From: Escherichia phage Pu-Krd-SF1
Sequence record: PQ249395
Length of the DNA stretch: 64,000 bases
Strand: one strand, 5' to 3'
The position numbers and the translations under genes were made by a program. This document shows, in pieces, positions 58,822 through 59,369 of the stretch (the first letter of the stretch is position 1; the number at the start of each line of letters is the position of its first letter). The notes under the pieces are model-generated. The model ran no database searches. It was not told the DNA's origin and worked only from the letters and a program-made list of their open reading frames with translations.

Positions 58822-59028
58822 ATGTTAAATCGTTGGATTAAACCAAATGAAGATTTAGATATTATCATTTCACGACATGTAATGAAGAAATATGAACTAC
58901 AACCATGGTCTACAGAAGTTGTCGTGCATTCATTTATGATGTACGCAGATGGTTCTGTCGAATTTAATGCAGAGATTCGATATGATTATGGCGAGAAGCA
59001 AGTCGAATTCAAAAGAGGCTTTTTGTAA
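58822..59028 (+). CDS. hypothetical protein
   Basis: 68-aa ORF; SD gaggagagcactATG. Confidence 0.5.
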   Translation: MLNRWIKPNEDLDIIISRHVMKKYELQPWSTEVVVHSFMMYADGSVEFNAEIRYDYGEKQVEFKRGFL

Positions 59029-59369
59029 TGTTTATCTTTAATTGGTTTAAAAGTTTCTTTACGGATTTTTTCTCTACAGTTCCTGGGGAAGGTGTAGTTC
59101 CTATTTCAAATGACTACCTTCCTTTAACTGTAGTTGAGTATGTTTATATGGGAGATGGAACAGTAGAAGCAGTTACTATGACTTATGAAGAAGCCCAAGA
59201 ATATTATAAAAATCCTTGGCGCTGGTCAACACCTACTACATCATCTAATACGCAGAATACACAGTCTAGTTCTGATTCATATGATACTAATGTTCCTGTT
59301 CATGTATGGGCAGGTGATTCATGTGGAAGTTCTTGTGATTCTGGTTGTTCATCTACATCTTGTGATTGA
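59028..59369 (+). CDS. hypothetical protein with Ser/Cys-rich tail
   Basis: 113 aa; C-terminus [18 protein letters not shown]. Confidence 0.5.

What the first reader, a model, noticed from the sequence alone, without database searches (positions are those of the whole stretch)
59028..59369. Protein with a Ser/Cys-rich C-terminal tail
The 113-aa product has a hydrophobic N-terminus and ends in [43 protein letters not shown]. This is a low-complexity, cysteine-dense tail that could bind metal or form disulfide-linked assemblies. I recognise no homolog.
Basis: seen in the sequence. Interest (0 to 1): 0.3.

Follow-up and report, generated by a model that had tools for sequence, protein, structure and literature searches.

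The report
T4 Mrh.1: conserved cysteine-tailed early protein
This ORF is the ortholog of the long-catalogued but uncharacterised phage T4 early gene mrh.1 (Pfam DUF7206); its serine/aspartate-rich tail, with two invariant cysteines and an almost invariant final Cys-Asp, is conserved across T4-like phages of enterobacteria, so it is a real protein feature whose function nobody has tested.

Summary
In detail: window 59028-59369 (+) encodes the quoted 113-aa protein. The claim "no homolog" is wrong. The window is a Tequatrovirus genome, 99.9% identical to Escherichia phage Pu-Krd-SF5 over the 1.9 kb compared. The ORF is the ortholog of T4 Mrh.1 (UniProt P20706), a full-length match to Pfam DUF7206 and phrog_2031.

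About 150 protein clusters exist, and every one that carries an organism name is from a T4-like phage of Enterobacterales. All share four parts:
- a short N-terminal amphipathic helix;
- a small beta-hairpin-plus-helix core with the motif E-Y-x-Y-x-G-D-G-x-x-E-x-V;
- a variable disordered linker of 42-100 aa;
- a Ser/Asp/Gly/Tyr tail.

In the tail, 123 of 126 members end in Cys-Asp. Two cysteines are invariant, in the pattern S-S-C-D-S...S-C-D-COOH. Cysteine is almost absent from the rest of the protein. Codons in the tail vary freely between lineages, so selection acts on the protein.

Published T4 data show an early transcript, no protein detected by tryptic proteomics, dispensability, and a weak "Semi-fit" CRISPRi-ART phenotype.

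My best reading is inferred, not shown: a docking module presents a flexible C-terminal dithiol arm that does thiol chemistry, either metal chelation or disulfide exchange. Function remains unknown. The gene is already known, and interest is modest.

The parts
58730..58751 (+). Terminator-like GC-rich hairpin followed by a T-run, directly after soc. It separates soc from the mrh.2-mrh.1 unit.
   Evidence: 9-bp stem, 5 GC pairs, then TTTTTCATTT. Terminators are annotated at the equivalent place in phage NR1.
58767..58795 (+). Sigma-70-like promoter with an extended -10 (TTTACT-17-TATAAT, TG present). It is the likely early promoter for mrh.2-mrh.1-mrh-srh.
   Evidence: 10 of 12 matches, the best in the region. 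This is a consensus match only. T4 mrh.1 mRNA is classed as 'early' in PMC9697503 Table S2.
58822..59028 (+). mrh.2 ortholog (68 aa, phrog_1873, function unknown). Its TAA stop overlaps the mrh.1 ATG (TAATG).
   Evidence: The mrh.2-mrh.1 adjacency is kept in five distant loci; the start/stop overlap was read directly only in L010. Mrh.2 is not a detectable paralog of Mrh.1.
59013..59018 (+). Shine-Dalgarno sequence AAGAGG for mrh.1, 9 nt before the ATG.
   Evidence: Read directly from the sequence.
59028..59369 (+). mrh.1 ortholog CDS (113 aa plus stop). Member of Pfam DUF7206 and phrog_2031.
59037..59075 (+). Residues 4-16: predicted N-terminal helix, aromatic-rich in the T4 lineage and amphipathic family-wide.
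   Evidence: AlphaFold2 helix at 3-14 and 4-16 with pLDDT about 53-64. Hydrophobic moment 0.51, and only 2.4% of shuffles reach it. Support across the family is moderate: 24 of 63 members have a shuffle fraction of 0.1 or less.
59127..59210 (+). Residues 34-61: the only confidently folded element, a beta-hairpin (34-40, 46-52) plus a helix (53-61). It carries the family's best-conserved motif, E37[12 protein letters not shown]49.
   Evidence: pLDDT 77-87 with a 63-sequence alignment. E, Y, G-D-G and E are invariant or nearly so in 93 non-redundant members.
59211..59306 (+). Residues 62-93: disordered Ser/Thr/Asn/Gln-rich linker. It varies in sequence and length across the family.
   Evidence: pLDDT is mostly below 50 from residue 69 onwards. 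Within Tequatrovirus, 9 amino-acid-variable codons and 3 indel columns lie in residues 67-88. Core-to-tail distance is 42-100 aa across the family.
59307..59366 (+). Residues 94-113: conserved acidic Ser/Asp/Gly tail W-A-G-D-S-C99-G-S-S-C103-D-S-G-C107-S-S-T-S-C112-D113-COOH. C112 is invariant and D113 nearly so (Asn in 2 of 125). The Cys in the S-S-C-D-S motif (C103, or C107 in the smaller alignment, because the register is ambiguous) is the second conserved one. The remaining two Cys are specific to the T4 lineage.
   Evidence: Synonymous changes occur at C99 and C112 while Cys is retained. Ser, Cys and Asp codons differ freely between lineages.
59367..59372 (+). The TGA stop of mrh.1 overlaps the TGAGGA Shine-Dalgarno sequence of the downstream mrh gene (ATG at 59378).
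   Evidence: Read from the sequence. The mrh start follows the annotation of the nearest record. The downstream context differs in other lineages, so it does not explain the conserved Cys-Asp end.

Best explanation
The ORF is the mrh.1 gene of a T4-type phage. It is a small, dispensable early 'host-takeover region' protein built as a tethered arm.

A short N-terminal amphipathic helix and a roughly 30-residue beta-hairpin-plus-helix module are the only folded parts. I infer that they dock the protein onto a partner, either a host or phage protein or the membrane surface. A long disordered linker of variable length ends in an acidic Ser/Asp/Gly tail. Its two invariant cysteines (S-S-C-D-S ... 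S-C-D-COOH) are the working end.

I infer that the tail does thiol chemistry. It either chelates a metal ion, possibly bridging two copies or a partner, or it undergoes thiol-disulfide exchange with a thioredoxin/glutaredoxin-type protein. The flexible C-terminal Cys pairs of ribonucleotide reductase R1 behave in the second way.

Shown:
- identity with Mrh.1 / DUF7206;
- the four-part architecture;
- protein-level conservation of the tail;
- early transcription;
- dispensability.

Inferred:
- docking by the N-terminal module;
- thiol chemistry by the tail;
- the nature of the target.
For: Identity. The region is 99.9% identical in DNA to Escherichia phage Pu-Krd-SF5. Orthologs are annotated as Mrh.1 in T4 and its relatives. 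The match to DUF7206 is full-length, and 63 of 63 family members hit that model.

Architecture. AlphaFold2 with 8 and with 63 sequences gives the same picture: helix 4-16, hairpin 34-52, helix 53-61, and the rest disordered.

The tail is under protein-level selection:
- 123 of 126 members end in CD and 2 in CN. There are at least 2 Cys in the last 25 aa in all 125 that end in CD or CN, and no Cys elsewhere in 117 of 125.
- The motif is S-S-C-D-S-[SG]...[SG]-x-S-C-D.
- Ser, Cys and Asp codons and the downstream gene differ between lineages while the peptide is kept.
- Within Tequatrovirus, the tail has 6 synonymous-only and 2 amino-acid-variable codons. The linker has 8 and 9, plus indels.
- A natural mosaic of 164 aa with a foreign linker keeps both the N-module and the tail.

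Thiols appear to matter. Extra Cys appear only inside the tail, in three different patterns (4 Cys in the T4 type; 3 Cys in P0056 and in P0120). Each conserved Cys is flanked by Ser and Asp.

A precedent exists for flexible, acidic, C-terminal dithiol arms. E. coli NrdA ends ...QDDGCESGACKI. T4 NrdA ends ...KADDCAACKL.

Expression and relevance. A promoter-like site, an SD sequence and translational coupling are present. The T4 transcript is 'early'. CRISPRi-ART classes mrh.1 as 'Semi-fit', with fold change 0.79 against a 0.7 threshold and P 0.069. Its neighbours are 'Not fit'.
Against: - There is no experimental or structural evidence for any metal, disulfide or partner.
- Cys spacing varies from 4 to 12 residues, and most members have only two Cys. 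There is no His, CxxC or other canonical metal-site pattern.
- The tail is predicted to be disordered, with pLDDT below 50 or only marginally above it.
- The resemblance to RNR tails is loose. It rests on short low-complexity sequence, and the final residues differ (acidic D versus K-I or K-L).
- N-helix amphipathicity is only moderate across the family (24 of 63 beat shuffles at 0.1 or less).
- The protein was not detected in T4 proteomics.
- The fitness signal did not reach significance, was not validated, and could be polar.
- The gene lies in the 39-56 region, which is deletable from T4 (PMC8262927).
Confidence: 0.4

Rival explanations
1. The tail is a C-terminal short linear docking motif. 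The free C-terminus ...S-C-D-COOH, together with the acidic Ser-rich stretch, is recognised non-covalently by a host protein, as happens with the SSB or FtsZ C-terminal tails. In this reading Mrh.1 acts as a competitive decoy or inhibitor, and the cysteines contribute shape rather than chemistry.
For: The strongest conservation sits at the very C-terminus: position -2 is Cys in 93 of 93 non-redundant tails, position -1 is Asp in 91 of 93, and position -3 is Ser in 87 of 93. The motif lies at the end of a long disordered linker of variable length. The neighbouring genes are host-takeover modulators and decoys: mrh, srh ('decoy of sigma-32') and modA/modB.
Against: A pure docking motif does not explain three things. 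Cys is excluded from the rest of the protein. A second Cys, 4-12 residues upstream in its own S-C-D context, is also invariant. Extra Cys appear in the tail in three different lineage-specific patterns. No known E. coli cytoplasmic reader of an ...SCD-COOH end is known to me (own knowledge).
Confidence: 0.2
2. The tail is a substrate for enzymatic modification or conjugation. One version is a RiPP-like core peptide, with Cys/Ser/Asp cross-linking or heterocyclisation. Another is a tag activated at its C-terminal Asp/Asn, by analogy with Pup (Gln/Glu end) or the microcin C precursor (Asn end).
For: The layout resembles a leader plus a Cys/Ser/Asp/Gly-rich C-terminal 'core'. The last residue is invariably Asp, with Asn in 2 of 125 members. 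The variable Cys spacing is tolerated, as in repeat-type precursor peptides. The analogies themselves come from my own knowledge.
Against: No maturase-like gene (radical SAM/SPASM, YcaO, LanM, ATP-grasp, PafA-like) lies next to it in any locus examined. No Pfam, NCBIfam or PADLOC model other than the DUF matches it. To my knowledge, the T4 genome is well annotated and lacks such enzymes apart from NrdG. The host would therefore have to supply the enzyme. The gene is also not exported or processed in any known way.
Confidence: 0.1
3. The tail is functionally neutral low-complexity sequence at the end of a small protein, or of a non-functional ORF, kept only by DNA-level constraints such as the downstream ribosome-binding site or replication slippage.
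For: The stop codon overlaps the SD sequence of mrh in the T4 lineage. The composition is low-complexity, with 45% Ser in the last 20 residues. The gene is dispensable and the protein was not detected.
Against: The same peptide end is kept with different codons (TCN/AGY Ser, TGT/TGC, GAT/GAC) and with three different downstream contexts. Synonymous-only variable codons outnumber amino-acid-variable ones in the tail, whereas the adjacent linker drifts and has indels. The family spans about 150 clusters in several genera of T4-like phages.
Confidence: 0.03

Closest known systems
Bacteriophage T4 Mrh.1 (gene T4p027, NP_049642, UniProt P20706, 'uncharacterized 12.6 kDa protein in mrh-soc intergenic region'); Pfam PF23836 DUF7206; phrog_2031
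   Same: It has the same length of 113 aa. It differs from T4 Mrh.1 at two positions (V18T and G106S). It sits in the same place, between mrh.2 and mrh, downstream of soc. The HMM match is full-length.
   Different: Nothing of substance differs. This is the same gene in a close relative of T4. The family has no assigned function.
C-terminal redox-active tails of class Ia ribonucleotide reductase R1 (E. coli NrdA ...DDGCESGACKI; T4 NrdA ...ADDCAACKL)
   Same: Both are flexible, acidic tails at the extreme C-terminus with a Cys pair whose last Cys lies 1-2 residues from the end. From my own knowledge, such tails shuttle reducing equivalents from thioredoxin or glutaredoxin, and PDB 1qfn is a glutaredoxin complex with this peptide. 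The first Cys is followed by an acidic residue and then Ser-Gly in both E. coli NrdA (C-E-S-G) and many Mrh.1 members (C-D-S-G).
   Different: Mrh.1 has no catalytic domain. Its Cys spacing is 4-12 rather than 2-4. Its terminal residue is Asp rather than Lys-Ile or Lys-Leu. There is no detectable homology. This is an analogy of mechanism only.
Cysteine-based metal-binding peptides (zinc ribbons and zinc fingers, metallothioneins)
   Same: The cysteines are clustered in a short stretch with neighbouring carboxylates. The T4 lineage has four Cys (C-x3-C-x3-C-x4-C), which could in principle form a tetrathiolate site.
   Different: There are no CxxC, CxC or CC motifs. Only two Cys are conserved, and their spacing varies. 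The tail is predicted to be disordered. There is no match to any metal-binding Pfam or PDB family.
Neighbouring T4 early host-takeover proteins Mrh, Srh and ModA/ModB
   Same: They lie in the same early gene block, are similarly dispensable, and share the taxonomic range of T-even-type phages of enterobacteria.
   Different: There is no sequence relationship. The name mrh.1 reflects map position only. It does not indicate any shown role in the rpoH or heat-shock phenotype of mrh (describes Mrh only).

Membership tests
T4 Mrh.1 / Pfam DUF7206 (PF23836) | Full-length match to the family HMM above the curated cut-off | tested here: met
   102.1 bits against a cut-off of 25.6, covering residues 3-113 on profile positions 1-107 of 107. 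The match to phrog_2031 has E = 3e-32.
T4 Mrh.1 / Pfam DUF7206 (PF23836) | Orthologous position: soc - mrh.2 - mrh.1 - mrh/srh - modA.x - modB - modA in a T4-type genome | tested here: met
   Annotated records of Pu-Krd-SF5, T4, NR1, T6, RB18 and RB3 show this order. The same order holds in distant loci L010-L014.
T4 Mrh.1 / Pfam DUF7206 (PF23836) | Family motifs derived here: core E-[YW]-x-Y-x-G-D-G-x-x-E-x-V, and a C-terminus of ...S-C-D with a second upstream Cys | tested here: met
   The window protein has E37[12 protein letters not shown]49 and ends ...[13 protein letters not shown].
Zinc ribbon / zinc finger | Two CxxC (or CxxH) knuckles at fixed spacing within a folded mini-domain | tested here: not met
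   There is no CxxC. Only two Cys are conserved, with spacing of 4-12. The tail is disordered in both models. There are no Pfam, PDB-sequence or Foldseek matches.
Metallothionein-like peptide | High and conserved Cys density with CxC, CxxC or CC motifs | tested here: not met
   106 of 125 members have just two Cys in the last 25 aa. Cys makes up 11% of the last 20 residues, against 45% for Ser.
RNR-R1-type C-terminal redox tail | A Cys pair within the last ~10 residues of a flexible acidic tail | tested here: inconclusive
   The Cys pair and acidic tail are present, and the last Cys is penultimate. However, the spacing is 4-12 rather than 2-4 and the end residues differ.
RNR-R1-type C-terminal redox tail | The tail is attached to, and serves, a reductase catalytic domain. 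Reduction by thioredoxin or glutaredoxin is demonstrated. | tested here: not met
   No catalytic domain is present in the 113-aa protein. Redox behaviour cannot be tested with these tools.
RiPP precursor peptide (ranthipeptide/SCIFF, azol(in)e peptides, etc.) | Co-located maturase gene (radical SAM-SPASM, YcaO, LanB/C/M, etc.) | tested here: not met
   The neighbours are soc, mrh.2, mrh, srh, modA.x and modB/A, or unrelated small ORFs in Serratia phage PS2. None is maturase-like.
Secreted or integral membrane protein | A signal peptide, or a hydrophobic span of about 18 residues or more | tested here: not met
   A regular-expression scan found no run of 10 or more uncharged, mostly apolar residues in the window protein. 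The N-terminal segment is a 13-residue helix interrupted by K8 and D13, and in other lineages it is M-I-N-W-L-K-N-L-F-K-T-K. No dedicated signal-peptide predictor was available.
Known anti-defence or defence proteins | Match to a curated model | tested here: not met
   PADLOC gave no hit for Mrh.1, and NCBIfam gave none above noise. Anti-defence-specific libraries were not available.

The most novel reading that the evidence does not exclude
The near-invariant ...S-C-D-COOH end (Asn replaces the final Asp in 2 of 125), sitting on a long disordered tether, is a reactive handle. In this reading T4-type phages use it to hijack a host thiol or metal pathway. It could act as a thioredoxin/glutaredoxin trap or an RNR-tail mimic that redirects reducing power during takeover. 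It could be a metal-bridged clamp on a host enzyme. Or its C-terminal Asp/Asn could be enzymatically activated for conjugation, in a Pup- or microcin-C-like way. Any of these would be a new class of phage takeover effector made almost entirely of a disordered dithiol tail.
Probability: 0.12. Interest if true: 0.7.

Novelty: already known. Interest (0 to 1): 0.3.

Why it matters
About half of T4's genes still have no function, and mrh.1 is one of them. The CRISPRi-ART authors list it among five T4 genes of "purely unknown function" that showed a weak fitness signal.

The analysis here adds a concrete and testable handle. The functional end of the protein is almost certainly the last 10-20 residues. 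They contain two invariant cysteines, each in an S-C-D context, and the penultimate residue is always Cys. This motif is kept across several genera of T4-like phages while the rest of the C-terminal half drifts.

If the tail turns out to trap a host redox protein or a metal, it would reveal a new kind of host-takeover effector. If not, this is simply one more conserved, dispensable accessory gene. For the genome scan itself the finding is ordinary: a known DUF in a known phage.

Tried and rejected
1. Homology beyond the family.
- A full HMMER search of 1.84 billion representatives found 12 hits, nearly all obvious family members or fragments. Two long proteins of more than 1,000 aa scored weakly (E about 1e-4 to 1e-3) over short stretches; I did not inspect them and treat them as likely chance matches.
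- A PDB sequence-profile search found nothing, even at E = 10.
- NCBIfam and PADLOC found nothing meaningful.

2. Fold comparison. Foldseek of both AlphaFold2 models gave nothing significant outside the family: no PDB match with E <= 0.001, and in BFVD the single match at E <= 0.001 is a family member, with two more weak hits among the top three that appear to be relatives. The models are mostly disordered, so this result says little.

3. Mrh.2 as a paralog of Mrh.1. I noticed that 'FMMYADGSVEF' resembles '[11 protein letters not shown]'. The idea is rejected: BLASTP found no alignment, and hhalign gave a probability of 0.4% over 6 columns.

4. The annotation 'prohead assembly scaffold protein' on the T6 and BW-1 orthologs. 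I reject it as transferred text. There is no similarity to scaffold proteins, the gene is early, and every other record says 'hypothetical'.

5. The overlapping ORF at 59185-59397 in another frame. It is read only in a frameshifted variant, P0006 from phage ERS-1. It is not a gene.

6. Link to an ADP-ribosyltransferase in Serratia phage PS2, where the homolog sits next to a 191-aa ORF. No similarity to ModA and no Pfam support were found.

7. A tail-only homology search, to see whether the tail is a portable module.

8. A regular-expression scan of the window for other ORFs with a similar N-terminal helix. The pattern was too strict, because it missed Mrh.1 itself. The result is uninformative.

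9. Literature. Nothing was found on 'mrh.1', 'DUF7206', P20706 or T4p027 in main texts. Only supplementary tables of two T4 omics and screening papers mention the gene.
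Full report

Yes. Window 59028..59369 (+) is an ATG-to-TGA ORF of 113 aa whose C-terminus is exactly the quoted sequence. 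An AAGAGG Shine-Dalgarno sequence sits 9 nt upstream. The ATG overlaps the TAA stop of the preceding 68-aa ORF (TAATG), the usual signature of translational coupling.

A cluster of four Cys in 14 residues is rare in this genome. Cys makes up 1.3% of residues in + strand ORFs of at least 100 aa. Only two + strand ORFs in the window have such a cluster.

**2. What is it?**

The region is a T4-type (Tequatrovirus) phage genome.
- Positions 58400-60300 are 99.9% identical to Escherichia phage Pu-Krd-SF5.
- The same stretch matches 698 phage records.
- Gene order on the + strand is: primase 61 - dCTPase 56 - homing-endonuclease-like ORF - soc - mrh.2 - this ORF - mrh - srh - modA.4 - modA.3 - modA.2 - modB - modA.

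In T4 and in phages NR1, RB18 and RB3, the ortholog is annotated 'Mrh.1 hypothetical protein'. Sources name it 'Uncharacterized 12.6 kDa protein in mrh-soc intergenic region' and 'DUF7206 family protein'. The window protein differs from T4 Mrh.1 at two positions.

It matches Pfam PF23836 (DUF7206) over its full length, with 102 bits against a cut-off of 25.6. It also matches phrog_2031, a family of unknown function. The name mrh.1 is positional and implies no shown link to the Mrh heat-shock phenotype.

**3. The family and its anatomy**

A profile search found 151 protein clusters, all of those listed carrying DUF7206. Every named source is a T4-like phage of Enterobacterales: Escherichia, Shigella, Salmonella, Yersinia, Citrobacter, Serratia, Enterobacter, Edwardsiella and Cronobacter. 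An exhaustive HMMER search of 1.84 billion representatives added essentially nothing outside this family.

Members are 90-164 aa long and share four parts.
- **(i) N-terminal helix.** The pattern is M-[IF]-x-[WF]-[LI]-K-x-[LF]-F, often followed by P-G-E-G-V-V-P-I. It is aromatic-rich in the T4 lineage and a short amphipathic helix elsewhere. Support for amphipathicity is only moderate.
- **(ii) Core.** The best-conserved motif is E-[YW]-x-Y-x-G-D-G-[MT]-x-E-x-V. AlphaFold2 places it in a beta-hairpin (34-40, 46-52) followed by a helix (53-61). This is the only region with pLDDT of 77-87.
- **(iii) Linker.** It is 42-100 residues long, disordered, and rich in Ser, Thr and Ala. Its sequence and length are not conserved.
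- **(iv) Tail.** It is made of Ser (45%), Asp (17%), Gly (14%), Cys (11%) and Tyr (7%).

Within the tail:
- 123 of 126 full-length members end in Cys-Asp, and 2 end in Cys-Asn;
- every member ending in CD or CN has at least two Cys in the last 25 residues (106 have exactly two);
- 117 of 125 have no Cys anywhere else;
- the consensus is S-S-C-D-S-[SG] ... [SG]-x-S-C-D-COOH, with 4-12 residues between the last two Cys.

At the matching positions, other lineages have Tyr or Ser. Two other sequences (P0056 and P0120) carry a third tail Cys in different arrangements.

**4. Is the tail selected as protein?**

Yes, on four grounds.
- Across lineages the same peptide is written with different Ser codons (TCN and AGY), with both Cys codons and both Asp codons. 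It is followed by three different downstream contexts: mrh with an SD sequence overlapping the stop, srh abutting or overlapping the stop, and an unrelated gene in Serratia phage PS2.
- Among 14 Tequatrovirus orthologs, the tail has 6 synonymous-only and 2 amino-acid-variable codons. That is similar to the N-domain (11 versus 4).
- The linker, by contrast, has 8 synonymous-only and 9 amino-acid-variable codons plus indels.
- A natural mosaic of 164 aa (phage 235Ecol030PP, and apparently also Yersinia phage fPS-90) combines the T4-type N-half, a foreign linker and the T4-type tail. This shows that the two ends are the constrained modules.

**5. Expression and phenotype**

A terminator-like hairpin follows soc (58730-58751). 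A strong sigma-70-like promoter with an extended -10 (58767-58795) precedes mrh.2. These are consensus matches only.

In a time-resolved T4 study, the mrh.1 transcript is classed as 'early'. The protein is 'NA', meaning not detected, whereas Mrh.2, Mrh and Srh proteins were detected (PMC9697503, Table S2). Non-detection is expected, because trypsin would give peptides of 8, 53, 4 and 48 residues.

T4 tolerates deletions in and around mrh.2, and that paper marks the whole 39-56 region as a reported nonessential deletion (PMC8262927).

In the CRISPRi-ART translation-knock-down screen of T4, mrh.1 is 'Semi-fit'. Its mean fold change is 0.79, above the 0.7 threshold, with K-S P = 0.069. Meanwhile mrh.2, mrh, srh and soc are 'Not fit'. 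The authors list mrh.1 among five Semi-fit genes of 'purely unknown function' (PMC11879866). This is a weak and unvalidated signal.

**6. How it most likely works (inference)**

No known family, fold or motif library explains the protein. The anatomy suggests a tethered arm. A small folded or helical N-module docks somewhere, and a long flexible linker presents a C-terminal acidic dithiol.

Three features argue that the thiols themselves matter:
- Cys is excluded from the rest of the protein;
- two S-C-D units are invariant;
- extra Cys appear only inside the tail, in three different lineage patterns.

Two chemistries fit this picture.
- **Metal chelation.** The ligands would be thiolates, the neighbouring Asp carboxylates and the terminal carboxylate. 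With only two Cys per chain, this would probably bridge two chains or a partner.
- **Thiol-disulfide exchange.** A precedent exists in the C-terminal arms of class Ia ribonucleotide reductase R1. E. coli NrdA ends ...QDDGCESGACKI and T4 NrdA ends ...KADDCAACKL. From my own knowledge, these arms are reduced by thioredoxin or glutaredoxin, and T4 encodes its own NrdC and NrdH.

The resemblance is one of mechanism, not homology. Spacing and end residues differ, and Mrh.1 has no enzyme domain. I give the 'thiol-chemistry arm' reading a confidence of about 0.4.

The rivals are:
- a purely non-covalent C-terminal docking motif or decoy (0.2);
- a substrate for modification or conjugation (0.1), weakened by the absence of any maturase-like neighbour;
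- neutral low-complexity sequence (0.03), contradicted.

The remaining probability covers functions I have not thought of.

**7. Comparison with known systems, and novelty**

Membership in T4 Mrh.1 / DUF7206 is met on every test. Membership in zinc-finger, metallothionein, RiPP-precursor, secreted or membrane, and known defence families was tested and not met.

The gene is therefore already known as an uncharacterised family. The family-wide definition of the conserved C-terminal S-C-D...S-C-D-COOH motif, and of the modular architecture, is something I did not find described. I found nothing on it in the searchable literature.

**8. Verdict**

This is an ordinary finding for a genome scan, namely a known DUF in a known phage. 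It has a modest residual interest, because it offers a sharp and cheap experimental handle on one of T4's unexplained early genes.

Noticed in passing
P0003 (Escherichia phage 235Ecol030PP, 164 aa); BFVD A0A449C3E1 (Yersinia phage fPS-90, 164 aa): A natural mosaic Mrh.1. It combines a T4-type N-half, a roughly 50-aa insert matching the linker of Dhaka/Mosig-type homologs (MEE[VI]IRQPEKAGNVG..LPLNSKKLKEHLD), and the T4-type four-Cys tail. This points to recombination inside the disordered linker between diverged alleles. The sequence was inspected only for P0003; fPS-90 is inferred from its equal length.
   Followed up: partly
L009:2095-2181; P0006 (phage ERS-1); P0005, P0008, P0009: Several database copies of mrh.1 are frameshifted or truncated after 35-60 residues. 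The ERS-1 product reads into the overlapping frame that corresponds to window 59185-59397. These are either sequencing errors or occasional loss of a dispensable gene.
   Followed up: no
window 57601-58452 (+): A 283-aa ORF lies between dCTPase gene 56 and soc. The nearest record annotates it as 'homing endonuclease'. At this junction T4 has the GIY-YIG endonuclease segF (675 bp), and phage NR1 has nothing. The ORF has no Pfam match at E <= 0.01. It looks like a different mobile endonuclease occupying the same insertion hot-spot.
   Followed up: partly
window 59378-59863 and 60195-60665 (+): Both Mrh and ModA.3 match the same Pfam family, T4_MRH (PF24070, E = 6e-42 and 4e-38), so they are paralogs about 300 bp apart. 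In the Dhaka/Mosig-type loci L010-L014, the mrh copy next to mrh.1 is absent and srh follows mrh.1 directly.
   Followed up: partly
GenBank records hit (e.g. MH809535, KT184312, OR539220): The small genes modA.2, modA.3 and modA.4 are annotated as 'molybdenum ABC transporter, periplasmic molybdenum-binding protein' in many phage records. This is almost certainly a name collision with bacterial ModA, not a real function.
   Followed up: no
window 2896-4284 (+): A tRNA cluster of eight genes: Leu-taa, Gly-tcc, Pro-tgg, Ser-tga, Thr-tgt, 'Met'-cat (probably the T4-type Ile tRNA), Tyr-gta and Arg-tct. The Tyr call is marginal in Rfam (30.2 bits against a gathering score of 29). No tRNA-Gln was found, although T4 carries one as far as I recall.
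   Followed up: no
window 10488-11027 (+): This is the only other + strand ORF in the window with at least four Cys in 14 residues. It is a 179-aa protein ending ...[25 protein letters not shown]. It was not examined further.
   Followed up: no
window 56836-57036 (-); L010:263-669 (-): A hydrophobic 66-aa ORF lies on the opposite strand between primase 61 and dCTPase 56. It is annotated as hypothetical in the nearest record and in NR1. In the Dhaka/Mosig-type locus L010, two overlapping ORFs with similar sequence occupy the equivalent spot (472-669 and 263-580, minus strand). It may be a small membrane protein.
   Followed up: no
NC_054907.1 (phage T6) and phage BW-1 orthologs of mrh.1: The Mrh.1 ortholog is labelled 'prohead assembly scaffold protein' in these records. 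Nothing found here supports that name.
   Followed up: partly
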